Assembly: GCA_023246355.1 (NCBI GenBank)
Contig: JAHFIQ010000001.1
Span: 145,887 to 209,886, forward strand
DNA length: 64,000 nucleotides
Source: Candidatus Uhrbacteria bacterium
Lineage (GTDB): Bacteria > Patescibacteriota > Patescibacteriia > UBA9934 > GWF2-40-263
Direction of reading: 5' to 3'
Within the stretch, counting starts at the first letter, position 1, and each line of letters opens with the position of its first letter. Below, in pieces: positions 1 through 55,256 of this stretch. A model generated the notes under the pieces. The model was not told the DNA's origin and did no database searches. It was given only the letters and a program-made list of their open reading frames with translations. Position numbers and translations under genes: made by a program.

Positions 1-1875
1 CGTTCCAGTCCAGGCGCCGGTTGTTTCTGTGCGCCACAGGGCTCCGCTCATGGTTCCGGTGTGTGTGAGATAAAAACCATTTCCTGAAGTCAGACCATCA
101 ACCGTGTAGTCGATGCCGTTGGCTGTGGTCACGGAATCAAAGAAGATATCCATCGTATCGTTGGTGGTCTCTGACGAGAAGAAGTTGAACATGTCGAGCG
201 ATCCGGCAGACTGGGTGCCGAAGTTCATCACATCAGCGCCTGTGCCTGTTCCCATGTTGATGGTTCGAGCCACAGAAGTGCTTCCGATCGTGATCGTACG
301 ACTGGCTGTTTGTGTGTCGAGTGAAACATCATTTTGGGCACTAGTAACCGCAACTGATCCACCTGAACCACCAGCGGTAACGGAGATAGCTCCGTCCGTT
401 GTGTCCATGGCAATGGTTCCGGCGCCGGCCACGTTTACATCAAGTCCAGCCGATCCAGGACCAGCCGAGTTGTTGGTGTTGATCTGAACATACGCGGCAT
501 CCAAACCAATGGCACCGGTTGTATTGTTGGTTGCATCGTAGGCATCAAGCTCAATACCTGAGCCAGCAGCGCCATCTGCATCAAGATAAATAGCGACGCC
601 TGTTGGATCTGAGGCAAGAGTTGTCGTGTCCAGGGAGCGCAAAACCACCGTGGACGAAGTGCCGCCAGCACTCGTCGAAAGGGTGAGTCCGCCTACGGAT
701 GTTGAAAAGTTTGAAGCAGCTCCGCCGTCGATGGTGACACCGCCAGTACCACCGTTGATGTCGACGAGAAGCGCATTGATTTCAGATTCTGTGGAAGCAG
801 CATTACCCATGGTGATGGTCTTGGCTGCTGCACCTGTTCCCAAGTTGACCGCGCCGGTTGAACCAGAATCCACTGTGACCGCGCCGGTTGTTCCAGAGGT
901 AATGTTCAAAGCAGAAGCAGCTGCGGAGGCAACCGTTCCAGCTCCAACAAAGGTCAAATCGTTAATATCTAAGTTTGTGCCCTCGACGAGGATTGCACCA
1001 GCATTCCCACCGTCGTCAATCGTGATGGCACCAGTGCCTGGTGTGATATCAAACTCTGGACCATCAACGCCAAATCCACCGGTACCGGTGTTTATTTGAA
1101 CCGCTGTTGCTCCTGTGGTGTTACCAACCGTAACCGTGTGGGCAATCGCGTTGGTACCAATGTTCAAGGCGCCAGTTCCAGCGTTCAATACGACCGATGT
1201 GGCACCGGTTGAGTTACCGACCGTGACGGTCTTTGCAACCGCGCCAGCACCAATGTTGATGGCTGTGGCAGCCGAGTTGTCAAGTGTCAGAGTGGCTGTG
1301 TCGGTGATACCTTCAACGAAGTTCCAGGAATCGCCATCGTAGAAGCGAATCTTGTCGTTCGTGGTGTCGTAGAACAAACGACCATCAAACGTATCGTCTG
1401 TTGGGGCGCTTGAGACAGCCTCAATGGCTTGAGTGAAGATAGAGTAAGGCGTCTTGGTTACCTCCACGCGAGGGGAAAGGGTTTCAGCTGAACCAACCGC
1501 ATCAGAAGAGTTCACCTTTAATTCAAGAAAAAGATTGTCTGAAAAATCAGAGAGGCTTGCTCCAAGCGGGATCTGCAAGGAGAAGAAGCCGTTGGTGACT
1601 GTAATGGCCGATGTTGGTGTGGCCAAGAAGTTTGTACCTTGGATATTGCTTGAGGCAGTTGTACCACCTGTGAGTGCGCTCTCCAAGTCAAACCAGAAAT
1701 AGTACGTTCCTGTGAGGGCCGTACCGGATGAGTTAAAAAGGCGTCCGTTGTAGCCGATCGATGTCGGCACCTGCGCTTGGGCAGCGGACGGGACTGCAAG
1801 AAGGGCAAAAGCCAGTGTGTAGAACACCATGGCCACTGCCACAAACGTGTGCAGAATGAGTTTGGCGGTTCGCAT
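1..1875 (-). CDS. Large secreted cell-surface repeat protein (N-terminal ~625 aa; gene continues past the window start)
   Basis: An ATG at 1875 (minus strand) opens a frame I translated by hand with no stop down to position 1. The track omits it only because it is incomplete. The N-terminus MRTAKLILHTFVAVAMVFYTLAFALLAVPSAAQA is a signal peptide. The body is Gly/Thr/Ala/Asn-rich with reiterated units (TVTVGNSTGATSVVLNAGTGALNIGTNAIAHTVTVGNTTGATAVQINTGTGG), which reads as beta-helix or adhesin-like. It also carries the motif GRLFYDTTNDKIRFYDGDSW. The plus-strand track ORFs here are out-of-frame or antisense artefacts. Confidence 0.6.
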   Translation of the reverse strand, partial: MRTAKLILHTFVAVAMVFYTLAFALLAVPSAAQAQVPTSIGYNGRLFNSSGTALTGTYYFWFDLESALTGGTTASSNIQGTNFLATPTSAITVTNGFFSLQIPLGASLSDFSDNLFLELKVNSSDAVGSAETLSPRVEVTKTPYSIFTQAIEAVSSAPTDDTFDGRLFYDTTNDKIRFYDGDSWNFVEGITDTATLTLDNSAATAINIGAGAVAKTVTVGNSTGATSVVLNAGTGALNIGTNAIAHTVTVGNTTGATAVQINTGTGGFGVDGPEFDITPGTGAITIDDGGNAGAILVEGTNLDINDLTFVGAGTVASAAASALNITSGTTGAVTVDSGSTGAVNLGTGAAAKTITMGNAASTESEINALLVDINGGTGGVTIDGGAASNFSTSVGGLTLSTSAGGTSSTVVLRSLDTTTLASDPTGVAIYLDADGAAGSGIELDAYDATNNTTGAIGLDAAYVQINTNNSAGPGSAGLDVNVAGAGTIAMDTTDGAISVTAGGSGGSVAVTSAQNDVSLDTQTASRTITIGSTSVARTINMGTGTGADVMNFGTQSAGSLDMFNFFSSETTNDTMDIFFDSVTTANGIDYTVDGLTSGNGFYLTHTGTMSGALWRTETTGAWTGT

Positions 1876-2028: not shown

Positions 2029-3261
2029 TTAATTAAGTTTTTTCTTTTTCCTTGCGGAAATTATACCAACAATGACGATTGCTCCCAAGATCAGAGTTAT
2101 CAACAGCTTCTTTGGTGTCGACAAACTGTTCACGGCTGCGCCAGCGCGTGCGATGGCTGTGAGCTCCTGATTCTCCTCAAATCCATCAGGACGACTCAGA
2201 TCGGTTCCTTCTGGGTACACACGGATTGACGTGCTTCCATAAGAAGCGTTCCCTGCTCGATCAAGCGCTGCGACTCGGAAAAAGTAGGTCCCAACAGCCA
2301 AGTCTGAGATTTCCAGCGGACTCTCTTGCACCTGATACTCACTATCGTTGATGGCCACTTGGTACTGAAGTACGCCTGAGGTCTCATCAATGGTCGCAAA
2401 GGTAAACCAGGCAGATTCGCCTTCTAAAATCTTGTTTGTTTGGGCGACAAGTTCGATCGCATGTGGCGCCGTGGTGTCGATGTTGACTCGACGATGGGCG
2501 ACAGCTGTCTGCTTTCCGTTTGCTTGAACGCCCTTCAAGTGGAGGTAGTGGACCCCGTCTGCCACACCGGTAAATGAAAGCTGAGATGTGGACCCGTCCA
2601 CGTATGTGCTTGGTTCCGTATCTGAGTTCTCATCAAACGTGTAGTAATAGGCTGTGATGGGACTGTCTCCTTGCAGCGCCGTCCAGGTGAAAGCGACATC
2701 ACTCACAGTGAACCAGTCGACTTCGTTTGGATGACTCTCGCTCTCCACAACAAGCAGCGCTGTTCCAGCTTCTGCTGTGCTGGAGGCTCCTACCGTTACT
2801 TGCGAGCTCCCCAAATTCCCCGTGTCTATTTTCTCCTCTCCGTCCTCGATCGCTCGAGAGTCCGCAGAGATTTCTACGTCACCACTTCCCTCTTGCAGCG
2901 CAAGAAAGGTGATGGTCGCAAATGGTCCTTGTGCGGTCACTGGACCTTCCAGCGTAAAGGCTCCCCATGAAATTTTTCCGGTTTCGTTGTTGTACTCATT
3001 GCCTGGCGCCACACGATCGAAGGCTCCCACAAGAGAGACATTTCGAACTTGCAGAAGCGTTGGATCAAACGTGACCACGGCACGAGCTGTATCGAGCAAT
3101 GCCCCGCCTGGATTCACGCTCACGATCACATCGAATTGTTCGCCGCGTTCCACGGAGTATTCGCTCTGATCCAGACTCATCGATGCGGCTCCTTGTGCCT
3201 GAGAAATCCCAGGCAAGAGAAGCATCATCCCGACTACGACAACCGAAAGGAATTGTTTCAT
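2029..3261 (-). CDS. Cohesin-domain cell-surface protein with Ig/FN3-like region and a C-terminal TM anchor
   Basis: The 425-aa track ORF is trimmed to the start MKQFLSVVVVGMMLLLPGISQAQG (signal peptide), which is preceded by AGGAGG. The N-terminal domain (FDVIVSVNPGG...VVTFDPTLLQV...GKISWGAF...ATITFLALQEGSGDVEI) has the cohesin pattern. The C-terminus reads LLITLILGAIVIVGIISARKKKK. Confidence 0.6.
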   Translation of the reverse strand: MKQFLSVVVVGMMLLLPGISQAQGAASMSLDQSEYSVERGEQFDVIVSVNPGGALLDTARAVVTFDPTLLQVRNVSLVGAFDRVAPGNEYNNETGKISWGAFTLEGPVTAQGPFATITFLALQEGSGDVEISADSRAIEDGEEKIDTGNLGSSQVTVGASSTAEAGTALLVVESESHPNEVDWFTVSDVAFTWTALQGDSPITAYYYTFDENSDTEPSTYVDGSTSQLSFTGVADGVHYLHLKGVQANGKQTAVAHRRVNIDTTAPHAIELVAQTNKILEGESAWFTFATIDETSGVLQYQVAINDSEYQVQESPLEISDLAVGTYFFRVAALDRAGNASYGSTSIRVYPEGTDLSRPDGFEENQELTAIARAGAAVNSLSTPKKLLITLILGAIVIVGIISARKKKKLN

Positions 3262-3362
3262 ACGTACTTCTTGTCCTCCTGTGAATGTTGGCTTGGTGAG
3301 GGACATGTCGGATCAAAAACGTGTTTTGAGGCGGCATGTCCCTCACCAGAGCCAACGTACTG

Positions 3363-4244
3363 TTAAACACTTGTTCCCCATCGTGCGACCATCATCGAGA
3401 AGTCATAGTCGTCCACGATTTCATCTTCATTGAAGTCCCCGGCACGATTGTTATCGCCCCAGATTTTCACCAGCTTGCTCAAATCGTAATCGTTGACTGT
3501 GTCGTTTCCTGTGACGTCGCCGATCAGTCTTCGATAGAGTTCGTAGACGGTTTCGTCTGAGTCCTTAGAACCATTACTGGCGACAATCGAGAAGCTATTG
3601 AGTCCGTATGAAAGCGATACCATCGAGGACCAAGAATCATCGTCGACCAGTTCTACATCCTCTGAGGAATCGTTAATCGTGATCTCGTCAGTGTCTGTAT
3701 CCATGGTTCCGTACAAAAGGAAGGATGTTTTGTAGCTGTATTCAAGTGAGGCAATCTCGTCGGAAACTTCTGGTTCATCTGGCGCGGATCCGCCTCCACC
3801 ACCGCCACCGCCTCCACCACCGCCGCCTCCACCAGAGGCTGTTGAACAGCTTGACGTGACATAGGCACAGGCTGAGCTACAGGAAAGCGTTCCGGCATCA
3901 AACCCTTGGCTGGCACAGGTGGCGCTGTTCAAGTCTGCGCCATCACATGTTTCAGAGGAATCGCGGAAACCATCACCACAGTAGAACTGGAACGCGCCTC
4001 CGCCCTGCTCTTGATAGGTTGTGCTTGAGACGCTTCCTGTGTACGGCTCAATAGCTCCCTGCGCTCGATAACTTGAGGAGGTAAGCATCCCGGAGGCATT
4101 GGCTCCAGCGTTGGCCGAGGGAGACAGGTAGCCTTCCTCTGGATTGATCTGGTAGGTCGTTGAGGAAACCGTCGCTCCCGCACTCAGAGGGAATGCGACC
4201 AGACTGAGCGCCACCAGCAGTACAGGTAATTTTTTATATGTCAT
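3363..4244 (-). CDS. Secreted Cys-rich protein with a poly-Gly linker and a C-terminal dockerin-like duplicated Ca-binding repeat
   Basis: Signal peptide MTYKKLPVLLVALSLVAFPLSAGA. The central domain is Cys-rich (CGDGFRDSSETCDG...CSSACAYVTSSC). There is a run of fifteen Gly. The C-terminus reads GDVTGNDTVNDYDLSKLVKIW...GDFNEDEIVDDYDFSMMVARW, which matches the dockerin D-x-N-x-D-x-x-V-N-x-x-D pair. Confidence 0.6.
   Translation of the reverse strand: MTYKKLPVLLVALSLVAFPLSAGATVSSTTYQINPEEGYLSPSANAGANASGMLTSSSYRAQGAIEPYTGSVSSTTYQEQGGGAFQFYCGDGFRDSSETCDGADLNSATCASQGFDAGTLSCSSACAYVTSSCSTASGGGGGGGGGGGGGGGSAPDEPEVSDEIASLEYSYKTSFLLYGTMDTDTDEITINDSSEDVELVDDDSWSSMVSLSYGLNSFSIVASNGSKDSDETVYELYRRLIGDVTGNDTVNDYDLSKLVKIWGDNNRAGDFNEDEIVDDYDFSMMVARWGTSV
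3787..3834 (-). repeat. (GGN)n simple-sequence tract encoding poly-Gly
   Basis: The tract ccgcctccaccaccgccaccgcctccaccaccgccgcctccacc is in-frame. It encodes GGGGGGGGGGGGGGG in the dockerin-like protein. Confidence 0.8.
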
Positions 4245-4262: not shown

Positions 4263-6011
4263 TTAAAACGCTCCTGAGTAAGCAATCGCTGCAACGATAT
4301 TCCAATCTTGATCTGAACTTGGAAGGGCGCCGAACGCGGAAACATACGTGGTGATCGCGGCGGACTCGGCCTCCAAGTCGCGCTCATCATCACTTGGGGT
4401 GTAGCCGTTCACCATGTAATCGATGGCGACCCAATCAGCATCCTCAGATGGAAGACGACCGGTGATGGTTCCAAACCAACCAATGGCTTGCTGTTCAAGT
4501 GTCAGCGCTGTTTCTTCTTCTGCGACCACCTCTTCTACCTCTGCCACCTCATCCACCTCTTCCTCATCTCCTGACTCTAGGAAGTCTGTGTAGGCAAGCG
4601 TGTGTACGACATTCCATTCCATGTCCGTCGATGGCATCTTGGCGTACTTGGCACCGAAGATGACGAGTGCTGCTTGCTCGGCCGCCAGATCTTGTTCTTC
4701 TTCTTCACAGCCGCCGTAGGCAATGCAATGCAGAGCTGCCCAGTCGTCTTCTGAGGAAGGCATGCGAGCATAGAACGCTCCGAAGTAGACGAGCGCTTGC
4801 TGCTCAAGACTTGCAGATGTTTCTTCCTCGACTACCTCTTCTACCTCGTCCACCTCGGCCACCTCTTCCTCCTCTCCTGAGTCAAGGAAGTCCGTGTAGG
4901 CAAGCGTGTGGATGACATTCCATTCCATGTCTGTGGATGGCATCTTGCCGTACTTCGCGCCGAAGGTTACGAGTGCTGCTTGCTCGGCCGCCAGATCTTG
5001 TTCTTCTTCTTCACAGCCGCCGTAGGCAATGCAATGCAGAGCTGCCCAGTCGTCTTCTGAGGAAGGCATGCGAGCATAGAACGCTCCGAAGTAGACGAGG
5101 GCCTGTGCTTCAAGAGAGGCGGAAGATTCGGTGGTTGTTTCTTCTTCGGTCGTCTCCTCTTCTGTTGTGGTTTCTCCCTCTTCAAGAGGTTCAAGGCCTA
5201 GCAATTCCTGTCCAGCCGTTGTGTAAGCCAGTGCGTGAACCGCCTGCCAGTCCATAGAAGAAGATGGGTTGGCACCGTACTTGCTATTGAACTTGGCAAG
5301 CGCGGCAACTTCGTACGTGAGATTGCGATTGTCCGAGTCATAGCAACCGTCATCAGCAATACAGTTATTGGTTTCCCAATCGTCATCACTGGATGGAAGG
5401 CGTCCAAACAAGGCGCCGAAGTAAACCAGGGCAGCTGCTTGATCACTCTCACTTGCACCGTTGCTGTTTGAGCTACTTGTATCTTCTTCGTCAGTTGTTG
5501 CTGGAGCTTCTGATTCAACATCAGCGCCCGTGATCGTGATCCTGGACGATCCAAGTTCACCTGTATCGATGGTTTCTTCACCATCGGAAATCAAACGTGA
5601 TGAATCCTCAACCGCGATCGTTGCTGTTCCGGAGGACAGCGCATGAAAGGTCACGGTCGCAAGGGTGCCAGAGCTCGTCACCGGAGTGCCGAACTTGTAC
5701 GCGCCGTAGCTGAGTGTGCCTGCATCGTTGTCGATGTCATTGGAAGGTGAAAGATTTGGAAACAAGCTTCCAAGATCAAACGACAGCACCTCGACCATAT
5801 CTGGATCGAAGGAAAGATCGACACGAACCGTGTCGAGCGACTCGTCGTTGGCGTCCACGAGTACGCTTAAACTAAAAGAGTCCCCTGTCTCAACGGACGT
5901 GTTGGTAGGAGACAACGACAACGTGGCCGTGGTACCGGCATGCGCCGCTGGAATGCCAACGTTCGCGATTCCCATCGCGAGTCCGAGGAAGAGGACGGCA
6001 ATCTTCTTCAT
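4263..6011 (-). CDS. Cohesin-domain surface protein followed by seven ~45-aa acidic repeats
   Basis: Signal peptide MKKIAVLFLGLAMGIANVGIPAAHA. The cohesin-like N-terminal domain reads SFSLSVLVDANDESLDTVRVDLSFDPDMVEVLSF...GTLSYGAY...TVTFHALSSGTATIAV. It is followed by seven repeats of the unit A-[AL]-V-x-F-G-A-x-Y-x-x-M-P-S-x-[DE]-x-[DE]-W-x-x-[IVA]-H-x-[LI]-A-Y, separated by Glu/Thr-rich linkers. Confidence 0.65.
   Translation of the reverse strand: MKKIAVLFLGLAMGIANVGIPAAHAGTTATLSLSPTNTSVETGDSFSLSVLVDANDESLDTVRVDLSFDPDMVEVLSFDLGSLFPNLSPSNDIDNDAGTLSYGAYKFGTPVTSSGTLATVTFHALSSGTATIAVEDSSRLISDGEETIDTGELGSSRITITGADVESEAPATTDEEDTSSSNSNGASESDQAAALVYFGALFGRLPSSDDDWETNNCIADDGCYDSDNRNLTYEVAALAKFNSKYGANPSSSMDWQAVHALAYTTAGQELLGLEPLEEGETTTEEETTEEETTTESSASLEAQALVYFGAFYARMPSSEDDWAALHCIAYGGCEEEEQDLAAEQAALVTFGAKYGKMPSTDMEWNVIHTLAYTDFLDSGEEEEVAEVDEVEEVVEEETSASLEQQALVYFGAFYARMPSSEDDWAALHCIAYGGCEEEEQDLAAEQAALVIFGAKYAKMPSTDMEWNVVHTLAYTDFLESGDEEEVDEVAEVEEVVAEEETALTLEQQAIGWFGTITGRLPSEDADWVAIDYMVNGYTPSDDERDLEAESAAITTYVSAFGALPSSDQDWNIVAAIAYSGAF
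4560..5170. repeat. Near-perfect 306-bp (102-aa) tandem direct duplication inside the cohesin-repeat gene
   Basis: Sequence 4681-4796 is identical to 4987-5102 (gccgccagatcttgttcttcttcttcacagccgccgtaggcaatgcaatgcagagctgcccagtcgtcttctgaggaaggcatgcgagcatagaacgctccgaagtagacgag). The flanks are about 90% identical. Track ORFs 4667..4915 and 4937..5257 translate to the same peptide, which confirms the period. Confidence 0.85.
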
Positions 6012-6318
6012 AAGAAAATTTTTTAGGGCGGTTAAATGTAAAAGGATTTTGATGGCGCAAGTGACATCAAAAAAAGTTCATCAAAATTATACATGCAACG
6101 CGCAAGACCGACAAAGAAAATCTGTGTATAACCTGCGAAGTTCATCAAGAAATAATTCCGGAGAGCACAACCGTTATCGGTCACTTTCATCCCAACAACA
6201 AACTTCTCGACAAGGAAGCATTCAACGGCAAAATGGGATTTCTCTATTGCGCTGCTGCTGGTAATGACCTAAAAAGTCCACGCCAGTATAGACAAAAAAG
6301 GTTTTCCACAGCCGATTT

Positions 6319-7629
6319 TTACTTTTCTCCTCTGAACAAAAGCTGAACGGTTTTGAGAAGAATCAGGAAATCAAGAACCAACGATCGGTTTTTTATATAG
6401 TACAAATCGTATTCGAATTTTTTTTGAGAGTCCGTGACAGAACGAGCATAGCGAAATTTAATTTGCGCCCAACCGGTGAATCCTGGTTTTACAAAATGAC
6501 GAACACGATAATGGGGAATCTCTCGCTCAAGCGTTTCCACAAACATCGGTCGCTCTGGTCTTGGTCCGACCAAACTCAACTCCCCTTTCAACACATTCAA
6601 CATCTGCGGCAGCTCATCCAAGTGACTCTTACGCAACAGGTTGCCCACCCGTGTCACACGATCATCGTTCTTTGTCGCCCACTGCGCTCCACTCGCTTCC
6701 GCATCTGCTCTCATGGTACGAAACTTTTTAATCAAAAACGGCTGACGATTTTTCCCAACACGTTCCTGTGTGTAAAAAATAGCTCCGCCTTCCATCTTGA
6801 TCAAAAGGGCGATGAACATCCACAGCGGCAAGGTAAGAAGCAACAGACACGCCGCGACCGACACATCAAAGACACGCTTCAAACGATGCGAGAGACCTTG
6901 ATTGCGCTCCTGAACATGACGAATGAACCACGCGTGATCGATCGTGGAGAGTGGAATTCTCCGTGCGAATAATTCATAGGCTTGGGCGAGATCCAAGAAG
7001 GTCACACCCGTTCCAAGACACGCATAGAGTGATTGAAGGTGGTCACCTTGAGACAAAAATGCGTTAGGAACAATAACCACATCGAGATGATGTCGTTGGA
7101 TCTGACTCACAAGATCCTCTCCTGATGATGTGAGAGACACAGACTCATATCCATGATGCTTCAATGACTGGATAATTTCTGCTAACTCCCCCTCTTGATC
7201 TTGGAGATCCAACAGACCAATCCGCCAAGGAACAAGAGAGGAGATCTTCAGCGAGAATACCAAGCGCCACAGGTACGCGAACAAGCCAAACAGCAGGACG
7301 TGGATAAGGAGGTTCGTCTTAGGACTCAAATCTGTGAGTGTCGTTGCATAGAAAAACAAAACCCCTGTCCCAAACAGCATCACCACTGCAACGCCAAAAC
7401 GCGCCATAAACGACGTTGAGGTCGGCGGCAGAGAGAGGTCGTAGAGATCCATCACATAAAAAACCGCGAGCCAAACCAGATACAGAAAAGAGAACGGGAC
7501 GGCGTGAGCCAAAAAACGCTCTGTATCAACCTGCCCCCAGAACCCAATAAAAAGAGCCAACCACAATGTCCCGTAGAGTAATGCTACGTCTCCTGTTAGG
7601 AGAGCCATTTTCCGAAAAATGAAGCCCAT
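6319..7629 (-). CDS. Undecaprenyl-phosphate sugar phosphotransferase (bacterial sugar transferase, WbaP/WcaJ-like)
   Basis: N-terminal TM segments. The C-terminal catalytic domain reads KRVFDVSVAACLLLLTLPLWMFIALLIKMEGGAIFYTQERVGKNRQPFLIKKFRTM...LDELPQMLNVLKGELSLVGPRPERP...KPGFTGWAQI. Confidence 0.8.
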   Translation of the reverse strand: MGFIFRKMALLTGDVALLYGTLWLALFIGFWGQVDTERFLAHAVPFSFLYLVWLAVFYVMDLYDLSLPPTSTSFMARFGVAVVMLFGTGVLFFYATTLTDLSPKTNLLIHVLLFGLFAYLWRLVFSLKISSLVPWRIGLLDLQDQEGELAEIIQSLKHHGYESVSLTSSGEDLVSQIQRHHLDVVIVPNAFLSQGDHLQSLYACLGTGVTFLDLAQAYELFARRIPLSTIDHAWFIRHVQERNQGLSHRLKRVFDVSVAACLLLLTLPLWMFIALLIKMEGGAIFYTQERVGKNRQPFLIKKFRTMRADAEASGAQWATKNDDRVTRVGNLLRKSHLDELPQMLNVLKGELSLVGPRPERPMFVETLEREIPHYRVRHFVKPGFTGWAQIKFRYARSVTDSQKKFEYDLYYIKNRSLVLDFLILLKTVQLLFRGEK

Positions 7630-7635
7630 ACTACA

Positions 7636-9669
7636 ATGCCGTTATCATACACTATGGCTATACAAACAGAATCCTCTCTGAACCGATTCCTCCTGACAGC
7701 AACAAGAGTCGGAATGTTCTCCACCTTGCTCACTCCCCTGCTGTACTGGAGCAAGCTCATGTTCCTTCAAAACTCAACCAAAACATACTTCATCTACATC
7801 ATGAGTGAAATTACGCTTGTGCTCTTTCTCTGGCTCATCGCAAGAGCGCCAGAGTGGCGGCCGCGTATCACGCTGACCACGAAACTTTTCTTTCTCTACA
7901 TCCTGATCCTTGTCCTTGCATCCTTGCTGGGCGTTGATCCATCTTATTCTTTCTGGGGGAGTTTGGATCGGATGGGAGGAATCCTGACATGGCTGCATCT
8001 CACTGCTGTGTTTGTGGTTCTCACAAGCTTGATGCGCACACAAGAAGATTGGGTAAAATTTTTTTCCTTCTCGACTGCGGTTGCCGTCATGATCGCTTTT
8101 ATCCATCTCTTCTCCTTGGGTGGAACGGCGCTCATACCTGAAGCCCGAGGCGGAGCGACCCTGGGCAACTCTTCTTTCTTGGCTGTGTACTTGCTCTTCC
8201 ACACCTTTTTTTCGCTCTTTCTCGCCTCACAACAAAAAAAGAAAGAACGGCTCTACACCTGGCTGAGCGTCTGTGCCTTCTTTGCTCTGACTCTTTCCAG
8301 CGTAAGCGCCGTGGCCGTTCATTTCAGTTTGATCGGTGGAATGGTCCTGCTTTCCATTCTCCTGCTTATCGTCCATGGACGCTCCAAAACAAAAAAACAG
8401 CTTGGGATCGTTCTGCTCGTCCTCTTGTCGATCGTCTTTCTGACCACAACGATTCTGGCCTTCTTGCCTGAGAGCTCTGTGCATCAAAAATTTATCGACC
8501 TTTCCTCTGGGTCGCGATTTGCCCTTTGGGATAGTGCTTGGCAGGGCATCAAAGAAAAACCCTTGTTTGGCTGGGGCTTGGAAAACTTCGGCGTCGTAGC
8601 CCTGACGCACTACAACCCCTGCTTTGGATCTCAGGCGTGTGGGTTTGAAATGTGGTTTGACCATGCACACAATAAACTTCTGGACGTTTGGATTGAGTCC
8701 GGCATTCTGGGACTCCTGCTCTATCTTGGAATTTGGATATCCAGCATTCGCGAGCTGTGGCTGGCGCGACAAAAAAAGAACATCACAGGAACCACATTCG
8801 CCATTTTCAGCGCTTTGCTCGCCGCCTACTTTGTCCAAAACCTGACCGTCTTGGATACGATCACGAGTCTCTTGTTGTGGATCATGGTTCTCGCATTTTC
8901 AAATTCTCAAGAAGAGCCAGCCGTAAAAAAATCACGACCCTTGCCCCTGGCCATCCCGACGATCGCAACGATGTTCCTTCCCTTCGCCTTCTTTTTTTTC
9001 GTGATACAGCCCCTGCGCGGCAACCTGGGATTTGAACATGTGCTGAACGCCACAGATCTAGACACTCGGCTTGAAGCCTACGAACGCGCCACCACCCTCT
9101 CCCCTCTTGGCATTGACATGCGTCGGATTTTTCTCGGCGACCAAACGTCCAGCACCTACTGGAAAATCCCGGTCGAGACATTGAGGAGCATCGAGCCTCA
9201 AGCCCGCCTAGAGCTCGGACTCGCTCAAGCTGGTCTCATGGACAGTCTCGGTCACAAGAATCAAGAATTGCGAGCCCACATCGCTCTGGGAATCATGTAT
9301 CAAACTGAGGGACACTTTTTTGATCCTGCGGCCTTTGAGAAAGCCGAAGAAATTTTACTCAAAGCGATTGAACTCTATCCGCTGATCCCTCAACCTAAAT
9401 GGACCTTGGCGGGTGTGTACCTAGACGAAGGAAAATTGGATGAAGCGCTTGCCATGACTCAGTCTGTCTTAGATGCTTCACCTCTTTCACCCCAGGCTTA
9501 CAACTATCAACTCATTGTCCTTAAATGGATGGACGATACTGATGCCTTTGAAAAACTTGCCGCTCAGGCACTTCAGCTCATCCCTAATCTTCAATCAGAC
9601 ATCGACCAACTCACCGCGGTCGACCTGCAAACACGCTCCCAAGAAGTTCTGACCTCATTCCACCGTTAG
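7636..9669 (+). CDS. O-antigen ligase (Wzy_C) family polytopic membrane protein with C-terminal TPR repeats
   Basis: Multiple TM helices. The core reads HAHNKLLDVWIESGILGLLLYLGIWISS. The C-terminal ~250 aa are TPR-like (LGIMYQTEGHFFDPAAFEKAEEILLKAIELYP). Confidence 0.7.
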   Translation: MPLSYTMAIQTESSLNRFLLTATRVGMFSTLLTPLLYWSKLMFLQNSTKTYFIYIMSEITLVLFLWLIARAPEWRPRITLTTKLFFLYILILVLASLLGVDPSYSFWGSLDRMGGILTWLHLTAVFVVLTSLMRTQEDWVKFFSFSTAVAVMIAFIHLFSLGGTALIPEARGGATLGNSSFLAVYLLFHTFFSLFLASQQKKKERLYTWLSVCAFFALTLSSVSAVAVHFSLIGGMVLLSILLLIVHGRSKTKKQLGIVLLVLLSIVFLTTTILAFLPESSVHQKFIDLSSGSRFALWDSAWQGIKEKPLFGWGLENFGVVALTHYNPCFGSQACGFEMWFDHAHNKLLDVWIESGILGLLLYLGIWISSIRELWLARQKKNITGTTFAIFSALLAAYFVQNLTVLDTITSLLLWIMVLAFSNSQEEPAVKKSRPLPLAIPTIATMFLPFAFFFFVIQPLRGNLGFEHVLNATDLDTRLEAYERATTLSPLGIDMRRIFLGDQTSSTYWKIPVETLRSIEPQARLELGLAQAGLMDSLGHKNQELRAHIALGIMYQTEGHFFDPAAFEKAEEILLKAIELYPLIPQPKWTLAGVYLDEGKLDEALAMTQSVLDASPLSPQAYNYQLIVLKWMDDTDAFEKLAAQALQLIPNLQSDIDQLTAVDLQTRSQEVLTSFHR

Positions 9670-11642
9670 TAGAGTTCAAAAATAAGCTGGGCTCGCTTCT
9701 GGTTCACGTCCGCGTTAGAGATGAGACGTATTTGATCTTCCAAGCTTGAGGAAAGCGCATAGGCTTCATTGGCATAGCGCAAAAACAACTCCTGATCACC
9801 CAAAAACTTTACAGCGATCAAACGTTGAATCTGTGATTCAAGAACTGAGGGATCGAGATCAACAGCGGCCTGTGTAAGAGCTACCGCCTCTTCAATTCGA
9901 CTTTGATCAAGAAACACAGCGGCGAGCGCCCAGAGGGGGTGAGGATTGCGTGGATTCAGGTCAATCGCTTTTTTCAGCACTGTTTCTGCATCCTGAAATT
10001 TTGCCGAATTGAAAAATCTCGCCTCTGTGTGATAGAGCAGGCCTAAATGCAACAACGCAATAAGATCATTGGGTGCTCTGGAGGTCGTATCAACGAGGGC
10101 GGTTTCTGAGAGACTGAGCTCTGCGAGGAACTCCGTATTATCCTGGGAAGGATCCGAGAGCATGTCTTTCCAGACCTTTCCCGCTGTTTGACGAGCCAAG
10201 TACCACCGACGCATATCGATGCCAAGTAGAGACCCGTTCACAGCTCGCTCATACAAACTCAATCGTTCCTGGGAGGTTTGAGCCAAGAGAACCTGATCAA
10301 CCGCAAGGTTCCCAAGCACAGGTTGAATCACGGAAAAAAATAGCCCGAAAGGAAGGACGACCGTCGCGACCATTGGAAACCAAACAGGGACAGGCTTGAT
10401 TGGTGAGTGAGCCGACTCCCCTAACCCAGCATATGAAAGCAAGAGGATCCAGAAAAGAAGTGTCACGCCATCATCAAAGCCGGTAAGATTCTGAACAAGA
10501 GAGCCGGCCAAGGCACAAATCACGATCAGAGGAATCACGCCTGAGAAACGACTACGCCACAAGGTCCACAACGTGAGGGCGAAAATACTGAGATAAGAAA
10601 AAAGTCCCATCAATCCTGATGCAACAAGCACGTCAAGAATGATGTTATGAGCACGGTCATACCAAACCTCAATCCCGCAAGGAAGTGACCCAAGACAGGA
10701 ATCATAATGCTGAAAAAACGCTGTCTGAAAATTCTCGAGTCCCCATCCCAACCAGGGGTGTTCTTGCAATGCTTGCCACGCAATATTCCACACAACAAAT
10801 CGCCCACCGTTTGACCTGGAAACAAACGTTTCACGAATCCAACTCGTAGGGTCAGCAAGAGACAGCAGAGCAACAAGAAAACTCAATCCAAGAATGCCCA
10901 GCATACACCAACCGATCTGTTGTATCCCTCTGGTCTTTCCCTTGACGATCAAAAACAAGGAGAGGAACAACACGAGACTCCCCAAAAACGCACCAATGGA
11001 GGCCTGTGCCGTTGAAAGGAAAAGAGCGAGGATGAGGACAGCCGTAGCGATGGCGCTCATCACCCGCAATCGGCCAACGGATTGAGTAGCCAACACGAGA
11101 CTAAAACAAATTTGAAACAGCAGATAGGCACCAAAAAACGTTGAGTTTCCAATCGTTGAACCTGAGTGAGTGGATGAGAGGAGATCAATACCTGCGAAAG
11201 AAAACAGATGCACAGTAGAAACAAGAACCCCAACGATCGTTGAAAGAAGAAAGAATGGTTTCCAATCTTGTGCGGTGCGAAAAACGGAGGAGACGACAAA
11301 AAAAATCAGAACAAGATGGATCCAAAGCAACACGCCAGCCATGCGATCAAGACTCCCCCAAAAACTCAGGACCGGATCACTGCCAAAAAATGCAGAGAGA
11401 GAAAGGACGAGGAGGAATACAACGAGGGCTTTCCCTACACGGTTCGCTCGATACCCGATGGGAGGATGCAAAAAAAGAGACCACACAAAAAAAACGAAAA
11501 TACATTCGCTCACTCCCATGATGAAAAATGTCTTCGTTGACTCAAAATAATACTGCAACGGAGTCCAAAAAAAGAGCGGTGTAAACGCAAGGGCATAAAT
11601 CCCTAAACGAACGAGACGAAGTGAAACAGGCTCTTCTTTCAT
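9666..11642 (-). CDS. O-antigen ligase family + TPR membrane protein (paralog of 7636..9669)
   Basis: RAHNIILDVLVASGLMGLFSYLSIF aligns with the paralog. The C-terminus is TPR-like. The track ORF starts at 11807 but would overlap the divergent gene at 11698. I trimmed the start to M at 11642 (MKEEPVSLRLVRLGIYALAFTPLFFW), which aligns with the paralog N-terminus. M at 11681 is an alternative. The two paralogs overlap tail-to-tail by 4 bp. Confidence 0.65.
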   Translation of the reverse strand: MKEEPVSLRLVRLGIYALAFTPLFFWTPLQYYFESTKTFFIMGVSECIFVFFVWSLFLHPPIGYRANRVGKALVVFLLVLSLSAFFGSDPVLSFWGSLDRMAGVLLWIHLVLIFFVVSSVFRTAQDWKPFFLLSTIVGVLVSTVHLFSFAGIDLLSSTHSGSTIGNSTFFGAYLLFQICFSLVLATQSVGRLRVMSAIATAVLILALFLSTAQASIGAFLGSLVLFLSLFLIVKGKTRGIQQIGWCMLGILGLSFLVALLSLADPTSWIRETFVSRSNGGRFVVWNIAWQALQEHPWLGWGLENFQTAFFQHYDSCLGSLPCGIEVWYDRAHNIILDVLVASGLMGLFSYLSIFALTLWTLWRSRFSGVIPLIVICALAGSLVQNLTGFDDGVTLLFWILLLSYAGLGESAHSPIKPVPVWFPMVATVVLPFGLFFSVIQPVLGNLAVDQVLLAQTSQERLSLYERAVNGSLLGIDMRRWYLARQTAGKVWKDMLSDPSQDNTEFLAELSLSETALVDTTSRAPNDLIALLHLGLLYHTEARFFNSAKFQDAETVLKKAIDLNPRNPHPLWALAAVFLDQSRIEEAVALTQAAVDLDPSVLESQIQRLIAVKFLGDQELFLRYANEAYALSSSLEDQIRLISNADVNQKRAQLIFELY

Positions 11643-11697
11643 AGGATGTATTTGCAAATTGTGTGCCTTTTTTGAAAACATGTAAAATACGGCCGCT

Positions 11698-12660
11698 ATG
11701 CAAAAGAACGTCATTCTCGTCACCGGCGGAGCTGGATTTATTGGTTGCCATGTCGCCAAACGACTTATCGAGCTAGGACACGACGTTGTCATTGTCGACA
11801 ACTTCAATCCTTACTACGATCCATCCTTGAAAGAGGCAAGGATCGCCACACTGCTCAAAGACCTGCCTTTCACTCTGTACAGAAATGACATTCAGGACGA
11901 GCACGCGATGCGGAAAATTTTTGACAGGCACAAACCCAATCTCCTCTGTCACCAAGCAGCCCAAGCTGGTGTGCGCTATGCCACTCAAGATCCTTTTGCC
12001 TACGGACAGTCAAATCTGATGGGCACGCTCACTCTCTTGGAACTGGCTCGAGAGTTTCAGGTACAAGGCATTGTGATGGCTTCAAGCTCGTCAGTCTATG
12101 GCGACGCCGCACACTATCCAGTCAAAGAAACGGACGTGACCGACCAGCCAATCTCTCTCTACGCGGCTACGAAGCGATCCTGCGAGCTCATCGCCTACTC
12201 CTATCATCACCTCTACAACCTTCCTATCACTTGTCTACGCTATTTCACTGTGTATGGTCCTTGGGGACGTCCAGATATGGCGATCTTCTCTTTTACGAAA
12301 GCGGCCATCGAAGGAAAACCGATCAATGTCTACGGTCAAGGCGAAATGGCTCGGGACTTCACCTACATCGATGATATCGTGGATGGTGTCATCAAGGCTC
12401 TTCAAGTGAATCTTCCATGGGCTGTGTTAAACCTCGGTCGTGGAAACGCAGAACCACTCATGCACATGATTCAACTTGTGGAACAAGCGACGGGCGAACA
12501 TCTTGAAAAACGATTCCTCGATATGCAACCAGGAGACGTGAAACAAACGTTTGCGGATGCGAGCCTTGCGAAAGAACGCCTCTCCTGGGAGCCTCACACA
12601 CGCCTGGATGAGGGAGTCGCCGCGTTCGTTGCGTGGTACAAAAAGTACTATGGAGCATAA
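11698..12660 (+). CDS. NAD-dependent nucleotide-sugar epimerase (SDR; UDP-glucuronate/UDP-glucose 4-epimerase-like)
   Basis: VLVTGGAGFIGCHVAKRL is a Rossmann motif. YAATKRSCE is the catalytic Y-x-x-x-K. DNFNPYYDPSLKEAR is typical of the UDP-GlcA 4-epimerase group. Confidence 0.8.
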   Translation: MQKNVILVTGGAGFIGCHVAKRLIELGHDVVIVDNFNPYYDPSLKEARIATLLKDLPFTLYRNDIQDEHAMRKIFDRHKPNLLCHQAAQAGVRYATQDPFAYGQSNLMGTLTLLELAREFQVQGIVMASSSSVYGDAAHYPVKETDVTDQPISLYAATKRSCELIAYSYHHLYNLPITCLRYFTVYGPWGRPDMAIFSFTKAAIEGKPINVYGQGEMARDFTYIDDIVDGVIKALQVNLPWAVLNLGRGNAEPLMHMIQLVEQATGEHLEKRFLDMQPGDVKQTFADASLAKERLSWEPHTRLDEGVAAFVAWYKKYYGA

Positions 12661-34976: not shown

Positions 34977-35053
34977 TGGTGGGGGTGGATGGACTCGAAC
35001 CATCGACCGTCGAGGTATAAGCTCGATGCTCTAACCAACTGAGCTACACCCCC
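34977..35053 (-). tRNA. tRNA-Ile (anticodon UAU)
   Basis: Minus-strand sequence GGGGGTGTAGCTCAGTTGGTTAGAGCATCGAGCTTATACCTCGACGGTCGATGGTTCGAGTCCATCCACCCCCACCA. It has a 7-bp acceptor stem, a GCTC/GAGC D stem, an anticodon stem TCGAG/CTCGA with loop CTTATAC, a T arm GATGG-TTCGAGT-CCATC, and an encoded CCA. Confidence 0.8.
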
Positions 35054-54664: not shown

Positions 54665-55256
54665 TCTTGCTCCAGGCCATATCTTCTACACGCTTTTTCA
54701 ATTCCTGTCAACCAAAAACACCCGCGCGGGGCGAGTGTCTGTGGTGTCCAAGGATCTGTCTGTAAGCCGAATTTTGTCTTCCCTGATTGCTCAGAGGAGA
54801 TGGCAATCTATCTAGGCCTGATGTTGCCACCAGGCTCAAGCGAACGACCAAATTTGTTCTTTCACCAGAACCCGCCGCCGCGAGAGGCTTTGGCGGGCGT
54901 GGAGGGTTTGCCACAATCCATGTCACCATGGAGCGAGAAGCGTAGCTGATTGCTCAACACCACTTCACTTTTCACCTTTCACTCCGACGGACGTCGGAGC
55001 TAGTATTGTCTCTGTGGTACTTTCCCTAGGCTTTGATTCAGGAATCATGGAACAGATTTCTCCAATTCCGCGAGCCCCAATTCTTATACCTGGTCGCCGT
55101 TAGCGACTCTCTTTGTTGTCATACCTTGCGGCACAACAGGTGTTCGGACTTTCCTCATGTTCTTTCAAACACGTAGCCATCCGACAGTCCTTGGACCCAC
55201 AAAAGATACCAGAACGTCTAGTCGATGTCAAGCCATTTTGATAGACTACAGCAAGT

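What the first reader, a model, noticed from the sequence alone, without database searches (positions are those of the whole stretch)
4270..5480. Novel ~45-aa repeat module (ALVYFGAxYxxMPSxxDxxW...HxLAY) reiterated seven times, with a recent 306-bp duplication
The repeat has a strongly conserved aromatic/Pro/Trp core and is separated by poly-Glu/Thr linkers. I do not recognise it as a known family. Two 102-aa double-units are nearly identical at the DNA level (4681-4796 is identical to 4987-5102). This implies recent duplication and likely copy-number variation between strains. It is a candidate binding module on a cohesin scaffold.
Basis: seen in the sequence. Interest (0 to 1): 0.55.

Follow-up and report, generated by a model that had tools for sequence, protein, structure and literature searches.

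The report
Unannotated helical tail repeat of Patescibacteria
A secreted cohesin protein of a Uhrbacteria-like bacterium ends in eight copies of a ~42-residue helix-loop-helix repeat; this repeat belongs to a large, unannotated family of strictly C-terminal domains on surface proteins across the Patescibacteria, and it most likely holds those proteins on the cell surface.

Summary
The repeat is real. It lies in a minus-strand gene (4263-6011, 582 aa) made of a signal peptide, a cohesin domain, acidic linkers and eight (not seven) ~42-aa helix-loop-helix half-units. The half-units pair into four ~85-aa four-helix domains (AF2 pLDDT 92).

The 306-bp tandem duplication is real but not simply recent. 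The copies are 89.5% identical and contain a 131-nt perfectly identical tract. An 80%-identical orthologue also has four domains with near-identical middle copies, so the pattern fits an older duplication plus gene conversion. An independent assembly keeps all four domains.

The repeat matches nothing in Pfam, NCBIfam, PDB sequences or PDB/BFVD folds. It is not an orphan, though. A profile finds about 1,200 protein clusters (Uhrbacteria, Falkowbacteria, Parcubacteria, Kerfeldbacteria and others). In these the domain almost always ends at the last residue of secreted proteins of 190 to more than 3,500 aa that carry Ig-like, fn3, protease or cohesin cargo.

In Uhrbacteria the gene heads a conserved cassette: cohesin+repeats, a dockerin protein, a membrane-anchored cohesin and a giant protein.

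Best reading (inferred, about 0.5): a new non-covalent cell-envelope anchoring module, analogous to SLH triads on anchoring scaffoldins. The ligand is unknown.

The parts
4263..6011 (-). Gene 1: 582-aa secreted protein made of a signal peptide, a cohesin domain, acidic linkers and four double units of the helical repeat. The stop codon is at 4263-4265.
   Evidence: ORF list. 99.8% identical to database protein P0001.
5937..6011 (-). Sec-type signal peptide (aa 1-25, MKKIAVLFLGLAMGIANVGIPAAHA|G).
   Evidence: Read directly from the translation. Inferred from sequence features; no predictor was run.
5577..5912 (-). Cohesin domain (aa 34-145).
   Evidence: Pfam PF00963, E 2e-9, 38.2 bits against a cut-off of 24.1.
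5208..5450 (-). Double unit 1 (aa 188-268). Two helix-loop-helix half-units. 'First-position' type with a C-x6-C pair.
   Evidence: Profile hit E 1.8e-32. Positional types.
4881..5123 (-). Double unit 2 (aa 297-377). 'Middle' type with C-x5-C. Lies inside the upstream copy of the 306-bp duplication.
   Evidence: Profile hit E 8.7e-37. AF2 model of this unit: pLDDT 92.4, pTM 0.84, four helices.
4575..4817 (-). Double unit 3 (aa 399-479). 'Middle' type, 91% identical in protein to unit 2.
4266..4508 (-). Double unit 4 (aa 502-582). Terminal type without the Cys pair; ends at the last residue (…AIAYSGAF-stop). It is the unit closest to the general Patescibacteria C-terminal domain.
   Evidence: Highest score of the four units against the broad-family profile (88.6 bits). 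Positional analysis.
4515..5126 (.). Tandem 306-bp duplication (4515-4820 and 4821-5126), 274/306 identical.
   Evidence: TRF, the repeat finder, base-by-base comparison.
4663..4793 (.). 131-nt tract that is perfectly identical to 4969-5099. It encodes the first half-unit of units 2 and 3 and is a probable gene-conversion tract.
   Evidence: The flanks differ by about 13% (20 of 148 nt at 4515-4662).
3363..4244 (-). Gene 2: 293-aa secreted protein with a Cys-rich motif, a run of 15 Gly and a C-terminal dockerin (aa 242-285, nt 3390-3521).
   Evidence: Pfam Dockerin_1 E 0.0098, below the cut-off, in the window. The orthologue in L003 passes the cut-off (24.5 vs 22.9 bits). The gene order is conserved.
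2029..3306 (-). Gene 3: 425-aa protein with a cohesin, Ig/fn3-like domains and a C-terminal transmembrane helix followed by KKKK.
   Evidence: Pfam Cohesin E 5.6e-8, 33.5 bits. The TM helix was read from the translation. Conserved in the cassette.
1..1875 (-). Gene 4: 5' part of a giant secreted repetitive protein that runs off the window. Its orthologues are 1,717 aa and more than 2,187 aa.
   Evidence: Translation, synteny, no Pfam hit.
6086..6114 (-). Promoter-like site (TTGTCG-17-TATAAT) about 75 nt upstream of the gene 1 start codon.
   Evidence: Consensus scan, 10 of 12 positions. Weak evidence: the number of sites found was no higher than in shuffled sequence.

Best explanation
The repeats are tandem copies of a previously unannotated all-helical domain. 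Its elementary unit is a ~42-aa helix-loop-helix hairpin with a P-x4-5-[DE]-W loop/helix start and an A-[IL]-A-Y helix end.

Across the Patescibacteria this domain forms the extreme C-terminus of many secreted surface proteins. I propose that it is a non-covalent cell-envelope anchoring module. It would bind a wall or envelope component (peptidoglycan, a secondary glycopolymer or an S-layer component; the ligand is unknown) and so tether the N-terminal cargo to the cell.

In the window protein the cargo is a cohesin held away from the anchor by poly-Glu/Thr/Val linkers. That cohesin, together with the membrane-anchored cohesin of gene 3, would dock the dockerin-bearing gene 2 product. The result would be a small cohesin-dockerin surface assembly.

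Uhrbacteria have amplified the domain. The ancestral terminal unit is preceded by 0-4 internal Cys-pair units, which would raise avidity. The window's fourth double unit arose by duplication of a middle unit and is being homogenised by gene conversion.

Shown: the repeat anatomy, the high-confidence predicted fold, the family size and taxonomy, the strict C-terminal position, the extracellular cargo and the conserved cassette. Inferred: the anchoring function, the ligand and the cohesin-dockerin pairing.
For: Anatomy and fold:
- Eight half-units forming four double units.
- AF2 models are confident. The double unit has pLDDT 92.4 and four helices. The 183-aa general domain has pLDDT 94.6, pTM 0.87 and nine helices.

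Family:
- 1,203 clusters at E<=1e-3 and 799 at E<=1e-10.
- Profile-profile link between the Uhrbacteria unit and the general domain: 98.9%, E 2.8e-17.
- Named taxa are Uhrbacteria, Falkowbacteria, Parcubacteria, Kerfeldbacteria, Jacksonbacteria and Patescibacteria.

Position:
- The domain ends at the last residue in 80 of 83 genomic ORFs and in about 120 of 128 representatives.

Cargo is extracellular and diverse:
- Cohesin, fn3, Ig-like domains, S8 protease, polysaccharide deacetylase, laminin-G and CarboxypepD_reg/Big_5 giants.
- 77 of 89 proteins have a hydrophobic N-terminus.
- Several genomes carry 2-3 such genes among the 80 loci listed.

Copy number:
- It varies from 1 to 5 double units in Uhrbacteria and from 3 to 5 or more hairpins elsewhere. 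This is typical of avidity-based wall-binding repeats.

Architecture and context:
- Cohesin followed by (most often) three C-terminal domains parallels the anchoring scaffoldins of cellulosome-producing clostridia, which have cohesin(s) plus three SLH motifs (established knowledge).
- The four-gene cassette with a canonical dockerin is conserved whatever the flanks.
- In the window and in L001/L002 the cassette abuts a Bac_transf/Wzy_C/glycosyltransferase cluster.
Against: - No ligand or binding residues are identified. The invariant residues (P, W, F, G, A, Y) look structural.
- Net charge is not conserved. Uhrbacteria units are acidic (median pI 4.2), while the general family is basic (pI about 9.6). 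This argues against one simple electrostatic ligand.
- The very strict flush C-terminal position and the conserved terminal motif (…RAIAYSGA[KT]R) also fit a sorting signal.
- No phage lysin carrying the domain was found, although such a lysin would have supported wall binding.
- Adjacency to polysaccharide genes is not universal.
- No experimental data exist for any member.
Confidence: 0.5

Rival explanations
1. Protein-protein docking module. The helical domain binds a dedicated surface receptor protein (for example an S-layer or anchor protein, or a cohesin, as a dockerin analogue), or it self-associates to build a surface lattice. It would not bind a wall polymer.
For: - The double unit has internal two-fold pseudo-symmetry, like dockerins.
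- The domain is shared by many cargo proteins per genome, as dockerins are.
- It occurs in a cohesin-dockerin cassette that contains two cohesins but only one canonical dockerin.
Against: - No calcium-binding D-x-N-x-D loops and no Dockerin Pfam hit in the repeats.
- One family member carries both a canonical dockerin and this domain.
- Most family members come from lineages whose loci showed no cohesin.
- No recurrent partner gene lies next to domain-bearing genes. The recurrent neighbours are HU, an ECF sigma factor and an anti-sigma-like protein.
Confidence: 0.2
2. C-terminal sorting or secretion signal domain. A folded tail is recognised by a dedicated export or attachment machinery, by analogy with the T9SS C-terminal domain, and may be removed after sorting.
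For: - Near-absolute flush C-terminal position (80 of 83 ORFs).
- Highly conserved terminal motif.
- Diverse and often giant cargo.
- Several proteins per genome.
Against: - Uhrbacteria proteins carry up to five full copies separated by long linkers. Internal copies (Cys type) are conserved far from the C-terminus, which a sorting tag would not require.
- Some single-unit proteins continue with TSP3 repeats after the domain.
- The proteins already have Sec signal peptides, and Patescibacteria are generally regarded as having no outer membrane to cross (established knowledge).
- No conserved processing-enzyme neighbour was found.
Confidence: 0.1
3. Host-binding adhesin tip. The domain recognises the surface of the host cell on which these epibiotic bacteria live.
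For: - Patescibacteria are largely epibionts, and several of their essential envelope proteins are proposed to target host glycans (PMC10633639).
- The cargo includes adhesin-like Ig and fn3 arrays.
Against: - The domain is strongly conserved across classes that live on very different hosts. Host-recognition modules usually diversify.
- In secreted bacterial adhesins the variable distal tip is typically N-terminal and the C-terminus is proximal to the cell (established knowledge).
- The domain is attached to enzymes and to a cohesin, not only to adhesins.
Confidence: 0.1
4. The extra double unit is an assembly artefact: a mis-assembled repeat collapse or expansion.
For: Short-read assemblers can mis-handle tandem repeats, and the two copies share a 131-nt identical tract.
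Against: - The copies differ at 32 of 306 positions, enough to anchor reads.
- An independent ENA assembly encodes the same 582-aa protein with one substitution.
- An 80%-identical orthologue also has four double units.
Confidence: 0.02

Closest known systems
SLH-domain triads of cellulosome anchoring scaffoldins (e.g. Clostridium thermocellum SdbA/OlpB/Orf2p) and S-layer proteins
   Same: Both are secreted proteins with N-terminal cohesin(s) and a C-terminal array of short helical repeats. In both, three domains is the commonest number (45 of 100 Uhrbacteria homologues with paired units), and the module is shared by several surface proteins of one organism. SLH anchors proteins non-covalently to a secondary wall polymer, which is the function proposed here.
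   Different: No sequence match to PF00395 and no SLH structure among the Foldseek hits. The unit here is a 42-aa hairpin, paired into four-helix domains or stacked into a run of four hairpins, not a three-pronged spindle. The position is strictly C-terminal. The lineage is different (Patescibacteria). The ligand is unknown.
CW_7 (Cpl-7) and choline-binding (CW_binding_1) repeats of Gram-positive and phage wall hydrolases
   Same: These are also tandem short repeats (about 20-48 aa; CW_7 is all-helical) at the C-terminus. Their copy number varies and sets the avidity for the wall. They show near-identical internal copies maintained by recombination.
   Different: No Pfam hit and no fold match. 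No phage homologues were found.
Type IX secretion C-terminal domain (T9SS CTD)
   Same: A folded domain that is always flush with the C-terminus of many otherwise unrelated, often giant, surface proteins within one phylum.
   Different: The T9SS CTD is a single-copy beta-sandwich that is cleaved after transport across an outer membrane. The domain here is all-alpha and multi-copy, has conserved internal copies, and occurs in bacteria regarded as lacking an outer membrane.
Dockerin (PF00404)
   Same: An internally duplicated helix-loop-helix module at the C-terminus of secreted proteins, occurring in a cohesin-containing locus.
   Different: The repeats have no calcium-binding loops and no Pfam match. 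A canonical dockerin is encoded separately in gene 2. The unit is twice the size of a dockerin segment.

Membership tests
Patescibacteria C-terminal helical-hairpin repeat (unnamed family defined here) | ~42-aa hairpin with a P-x(3-5)-[DE]-W motif and an A-[IL]-A-Y helix end, giving a significant profile match. | tested here: met
   Four double units at E 1.8e-32 to 8.7e-37. hhalign against the general-family profile: 98.9%, E 2.8e-17.
Patescibacteria C-terminal helical-hairpin repeat (unnamed family defined here) | The last unit ends at the protein's C-terminus. | tested here: met
   The window protein ends …AIAYSGAF-stop. Also 71 of 77 Uhrbacteria homologues, 80 of 83 genomic ORFs and about 120 of 128 representatives.
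Patescibacteria C-terminal helical-hairpin repeat (unnamed family defined here) | Secreted host protein with extracellular cargo. | tested here: met
   Signal-peptide-like N-terminus and cohesin. Cargo census.
Cohesin (PF00963), N-terminal domain of the same protein | Pfam match above the gathering score. | tested here: met
   38.2 bits against 24.1, aa 34-145.
SLH (PF00395) | Sequence match to the SLH profile, or fold similarity to solved SLH triads. | tested here: not met
   No hit at E<=10 in 74 double units or at E<=1 in 5 distant members. No SLH entry among the Foldseek PDB hits.
Peptidoglycan-binding modules (PG_binding_1, LysM, SPOR, CW_7, CW_binding_1/2, SH3b) | Pfam profile match. | tested here: not met
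   None is listed. NCBIfam also gave nothing.
Pseudomurein-binding repeat PMBR (PF09373) | Pfam match above the cut-off of 24.9 bits. | tested here: not met
   Only two isolated sub-threshold hits (E 0.018 and E 0.023; the one reported with details scores 15.2 bits over 14 residues).
Dockerin (PF00404) | Two ~22-residue segments with calcium-binding D-x-[DN]-x-D loops, and a Pfam match. | tested here: not met
   No Pfam hit in the repeats. Such loops are absent from the consensus. They are present in the gene 2 C-terminus instead.
Generic alpha-solenoid repeats (TPR, Sel1, HEAT/Armadillo, ankyrin) | Profile match or significant fold match. | tested here: not met
   No Pfam hit. The best solenoid hit in Foldseek (a designed Armadillo protein) has E 2.5 and TM 0.19. 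An ankyrin phmmer hit has E 0.54.
DUF4214 (PF13946); motif resemblance recalled from memory (…LGRxPDxxGxxxW…) | Pfam profile match. | tested here: not met
   Not listed at E<=10 in 74 members. A phage DUF4214 protein appears in BFVD only at E 1.6, TM 0.18.
T9SS C-terminal sorting domain | Single-copy beta-sandwich CTD; a diderm host with a T9SS. | tested here: not met
   The models are all-alpha and the domain is multi-copy. The presence of a T9SS in these genomes was not tested.

The most novel reading that the evidence does not exclude
This helical-hairpin tail, structurally unlike anything solved, is the general surface-display module of the Patescibacteria. It would be the functional counterpart of SLH, LPXTG or the T9SS CTD in other phyla. 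It would recognise a lineage-specific envelope component and mark the whole 'surfaceome', including the giant adhesins that mediate attachment to host cells.
Probability: 0.35. Interest if true: 0.8.

Novelty: new variant of a known kind. Interest (0 to 1): 0.6.

Why it matters
Patescibacteria (the candidate phyla radiation) make up a large share of bacterial diversity and are mostly uncultured. They are thought to live attached to other cells. How they display proteins on their surface is essentially unknown.

A conserved C-terminal tag that is easy to search for would give a direct handle on this problem. It sits on hundreds of secreted proteins, including cohesins, proteases, Ig-repeat giants and polysaccharide deacetylases. 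With it one can:
- list the candidate surface proteins of any genome;
- express the ~85-aa domain and fish for its ligand;
- add a new family to the domain databases.

The predicted fold is confident (pLDDT 92-95) and has no Foldseek match in the PDB, so a solved structure would probably be new.

Locally, the finding also documents a conserved cohesin-dockerin cassette in Uhrbacteria. This points to cellulosome-like modular assembly used for something other than cellulose degradation.

Tried and rejected
**Searches for a known family (all negative)**
- Pfam and NCBIfam scans of the whole protein, of 74 double units and of 5 distant tails returned only scattered sub-threshold hits: HCV_NS4b, E1_4HB and PMBR.
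- PDB sequence searches used a single unit and two profiles. The only 'hit' was a protein labelled only 'E8' (8fje), whose matches are weak, repeated and local (best per-domain i-Evalue 23). I judged it not meaningful.
- Foldseek of both models against the PDB gave best E 1.3 and 2.0. A recurring weak partial match to a GH23 lysozyme-like chitinase (3w6e, TMq 0.46, rmsd about 5 Å) is noted as a lead only. It is not significant.
- Foldseek against BFVD gave nothing.

**Search for phage lysins that borrow the domain (negative)**
- The IMG/VR pattern scan and a tblastn against INPHARED phages both found nothing.

**Search for a conserved partner gene**
- Next to domain-bearing genes in 80 loci, the only recurrent neighbours were HU, an ECF sigma factor, an anti-sigma-like protein and a secreted protein.

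**Other copies in the window**
- A six-frame profile search of the window found no other copy.

**Literature**
- Six full-text searches found no description of this domain or of Uhrbacteria cohesins. An S-layer survey preprint mentions novel anchoring domains and Patescibacteria S-layer proteins, but not this domain.

**Technical failure**
- The first genome contigs attempt, with the diverse alignment A2, failed for lack of a conserved stretch. It was repeated with A3.

**Limit on structural interpretation**
- I could not map conserved residues onto the models because model coordinates are not exported.
Full report
**1. The observation**

The flagged interval lies inside a minus-strand ORF, 4263-6011, encoding 582 aa. 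The product has four parts:
- a Sec-type signal peptide (…PAAHA|G);
- a cohesin domain at aa 34-145 (Pfam PF00963, E 2e-9, 38.2 bits against a cut-off of 24.1);
- an acidic Ser/Thr/Glu linker;
- the repeat region, aa 186-582.

The motif P-x(3-5)-[DE]-W occurs eight times, at aa 206, 249, 316, 358, 418, 460, 521 and 564.

The spacing alternates between about 42 aa and about 60-70 aa. The eight half-units therefore form four double units, separated by poly-Glu/Val/Thr linkers. Each double unit matches a family profile at E 1.8e-32 to 8.7e-37. The first and second halves of the double unit are themselves homologous (hhalign 99.1%, E 7e-19, 42% consensus identity).

**2. The duplication**

Tandem Repeats Finder reports a 306-bp period over 4515-5115 (2.0 copies, 91% matches, score 1032), and the repeat finder agrees.

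- Base by base, 4515-4820 and 4821-5126 share 274 of 306 positions.
- The longest perfect run is 4663-4793 = 4969-5099 (131 nt).
- In codon terms the copies differ at 14 synonymous and 10 non-synonymous codons. Codons 9-51, which encode the first half-unit, are identical at the DNA level.

This mosaic is what gene conversion on an older duplicate produces: a perfect tract flanked by about 13% divergence. It is not what a fresh duplication looks like.

The orthologue comparison agrees. Orthologue P0002 is 80% identical over the repeat region and also has four double units. Its two middle units are 95% identical to each other, but only 85-87% identical to the window's middle units. That is concerted evolution.

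The array is not an assembly artefact. Database protein P0001, from an independent ENA assembly (28.5-kb contig), differs only by E336D and has all four double units.

**3. What the repeat is**

No known family matches:
- Pfam and NCBIfam on the whole protein;
- Pfam on 74 individual double units at E<=10;
- PDB sequences by phmmer and by profile.

An AlphaFold2 model of double unit 2, built with a 74-sequence alignment (A1), is confident (pLDDT 92.4, pTM 0.84). It consists of four helices, that is two helix-loop-helix hairpins. Foldseek against the PDB finds nothing better than E 1.3.

**4. Relatives in Uhrbacteria**

A search with the repeat region returned 103 proteins. Where they are named, nearly all come from Candidatus Uhrbacteria or the Patescibacteria group (one is labelled Portnoybacteria), and nearly all have the architecture cohesin + repeats.

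Among the 100 homologues in which paired units were found, the number of double units is 1 (23 proteins), 2 (25), 3 (45), 4 (5) or 5 (2).

Units are position-specific:
- First and middle units carry a C-x(4-6)-C pair (72 of 77 and 58 of 61).
- The last unit lacks the pair (68 of 77) and lies within 3 residues of the C-terminus (71 of 77).

The window's units 1, 2/3 and 4 are each most similar to the same-position units of orthologues. A few homologues attach the module to other cargo, namely an S8 peptidase (P0086) and an SH3_3 protein (P0078). Some continue with bacterial TSP3 repeats.

**5. The wider family**

A profile search of 1.84 billion representative proteins found 1,203 clusters at E<=1e-3, 799 at E<=1e-10 and 32 at E<=1e-30.

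- In about 120 of the 128 new representatives the match ends at the last or next-to-last residue. The host proteins are 79-3,508 aa long.
- The distant members carry overlapping arrays of three to five hairpins, ending …RAIAYSGA[KT]R.
- Neither Pfam nor NCBIfam recognises them.
- hhalign links the Uhrbacteria double unit to the last two hairpins of this general domain (98.9%, E 2.8e-17).
- The window's terminal unit scores highest against the broad profile (88.6 bits, against 62-76 for the internal units). This suggests the terminal unit is ancestral and the internal Cys-type units are a Uhrbacteria amplification.

A scan of one genome per species found 319 confirmed loci using just two peptide patterns. 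Of the 80 loci listed, those with informative titles are Patescibacteria, Parcubacteria, Falkowbacteria, Kerfeldbacteria and Jacksonbacteria. Some titles from bulk MAG submissions read 'uncultured Gammaproteobacteria' and similar, and I did not verify them.

Several genomes contribute 2-3 of these loci. In 80 of 83 ORFs the domain is flush with the stop codon, and the ORFs range from 190 to more than 2,100 aa.

The cargo domains in 88 representatives and 5 giants are all extracellular types: fn3, cohesin, Ig-like domains, CarboxypepD_reg, Big_5, LTD, laminin-G, S8 protease, polysaccharide deacetylase, beta-helix and one canonical dockerin. Of 89 proteins, 77 have a hydrophobic N-terminus.

An AF2 model of a 183-aa Falkowbacteria-type tail (alignment A5) is very confident (pLDDT 94.6, pTM 0.87). 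It shows nine helices, a cap helix plus four hairpins. It has no Foldseek match in the PDB (best E 2.0) or in BFVD (best E 0.57), and no PDB sequence match.

**6. Genomic context**

Gene 1 is followed on the same strand, after 18 and 56 nt, by two more genes and then a fourth.
- **Gene 2** (3363-4244): a secreted 293-aa protein with a Cys-rich motif, 15 consecutive Gly and a C-terminal dockerin. The dockerin is below the Pfam threshold in the window (E 0.0098). It is above the gathering score in the L003 orthologue (24.5 bits against 22.9).
- **Gene 3** (2029-3306): a cohesin, Ig/fn3-like domains and a C-terminal transmembrane helix.
- **Gene 4** (1-1875): a giant secreted repetitive protein that runs off the window.

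The same four-gene order is found in relatives whose flanking genes are entirely different. The flanks are PolyA_pol and ribosomal genes there, but Bac_transf and Wzy_C here. The cassette is therefore a unit.

In the window and in L001/L002 it abuts a large polysaccharide-synthesis cluster. The S8 protease that carries the domain also sits among glycosyltransferases.

**7. Mechanism**

The facts that bear on function are these:
- (i) The host proteins are secreted.
- (ii) The domain is at the extreme C-terminus.
- (iii) It is shared by many unrelated cargo proteins, and several genomes carry more than one such gene.
- (iv) Its copy number varies and internal copies are homogenised.
- (v) It is restricted to one phylum-level lineage.

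Together these are the signature of a cell-surface retention module, as with SLH, CWB2, choline-binding, GW, LysM and CW_7 (established knowledge of those families). The usual Uhrbacteria architecture, cohesin plus three C-terminal domains, mirrors clostridial anchoring scaffoldins, which have cohesin plus three SLH motifs.

I therefore propose that the array tethers the protein non-covalently to an envelope component. The acidic linkers would act as a stalk. The distal cohesin and the membrane-anchored cohesin of gene 3 would capture the gene 2 dockerin protein.

This is inference. No ligand is known. The invariant residues look structural, with an S/T-x-x-D capping box before the Trp helix and a core of Phe, Trp, Ala and Tyr. 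Net charge flips between Uhrbacteria (pI about 4.2) and the rest of the family (pI about 9.6).

The rivals are a protein-protein docking or self-assembly module, a C-terminal sorting signal and a host-binding tip. The sorting-signal reading is weakened by the conserved internal copies far from the C-terminus. The dockerin-analogue reading is weakened by the separate canonical dockerin and by a family member that carries both modules.

**8. Comparison with known families, and novelty**

Membership tests for SLH, PG-binding modules, PMBR, dockerin, generic alpha-solenoids, DUF4214 and the T9SS CTD were all negative (see the membership table).

The function class, a C-terminal repeat module on surface proteins, is familiar. 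The sequence family and the predicted fold are not in the libraries I could search (Pfam copy whose newest models date from 2025, NCBIfam release 20.0 of June 2026, PDB copies of 2026). Six full-text literature searches found no description. AlphaFold DB and InterPro were not available to me, so an unnamed cluster there cannot be excluded.

I rate it a new variant of a known kind.

**9. Verdict**

- The claim of novelty holds.
- The 'recent duplication' is better read as an older duplication with gene conversion.
- The main addition is that the window's repeat is the amplified Uhrbacteria form of a Patescibacteria-wide, strictly C-terminal, structurally unmatched domain.

Interest 0.6. Confidence that the family and its anatomy are as described is above 0.9. 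Confidence in the anchoring function is about 0.5.

Noticed in passing
window 34977-35053 (-): tRNA-Ile with anticodon TAT. This is uncommon in bacteria, most of which decode AUA with a lysidine-modified CAU tRNA. It may say something about AUA decoding in this lineage.
   Followed up: no
window 54746-55192 (-): Bacterial RNase P class A RNA. It spans 447 nt against a 367-position model, so it carries sizeable insertions (125.8 bits).
   Followed up: no
window 3363-4244 (-), especially 3790-3834: Gene 2 encodes a run of 15 consecutive glycines between a Cys-rich DUF4215-like motif and a beta-rich region. It ends in a canonical two-segment dockerin. The poly-Gly tract is an 18-nt tandem DNA repeat and could itself vary in length.
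   Followed up: partly
window 1-1875 (-); L003 11267-17080: A giant secreted protein made of degenerate Gly/Thr/Asn/Ala-rich repeats (…TVTVGNSTGATSVVLNAGTGALNIG…). Its orthologues are 1,717 aa and more than 2,187 aa. It has no Pfam hit and is the conserved fourth gene of the cohesin-dockerin cassette. It could be a fibre or an S-layer-like component.
   Followed up: partly
window 6319-12660 and onward to about 33300: A large cell-envelope polysaccharide cluster lies next to the cassette. It includes Bac_transf, two convergent Wzy_C (O-antigen-ligase-like) proteins with C-terminal TPR regions, an epimerase, glycosyltransferases and a methyltransferase. This may be relevant to the ligand of the tail domain.
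   Followed up: partly
L005-L084 (other Patescibacteria loci): Genes carrying the C-terminal domain repeatedly lie next to an ECF-type sigma factor (12 loci), an anti-sigma-like membrane protein (9 loci) and an HU-like protein (13 loci). Three loci have two domain-bearing genes side by side.
   Followed up: partly
Uhrbacteria double units (alignment A1) vs the general family (A2, A5): The domain's net charge is inverted between lineages. The median pI is 4.2 in Uhrbacteria and about 9.6 elsewhere. Only the Uhrbacteria internal units have a conserved C-x(4-6)-C pair. Neither difference is explained.
   Followed up: partly
L011, L017, L024, L026, L044, L054, L056, L079 and others: Several contigs carrying this Patescibacteria-type domain are titled 'uncultured Gammaproteobacteria', Chlorobiota, Methanobacteriaceae, Planctomycetales or Saccharibacteria in their MAG records. 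These are probably placeholder labels or binning contaminants. I did not verify them.
   Followed up: no
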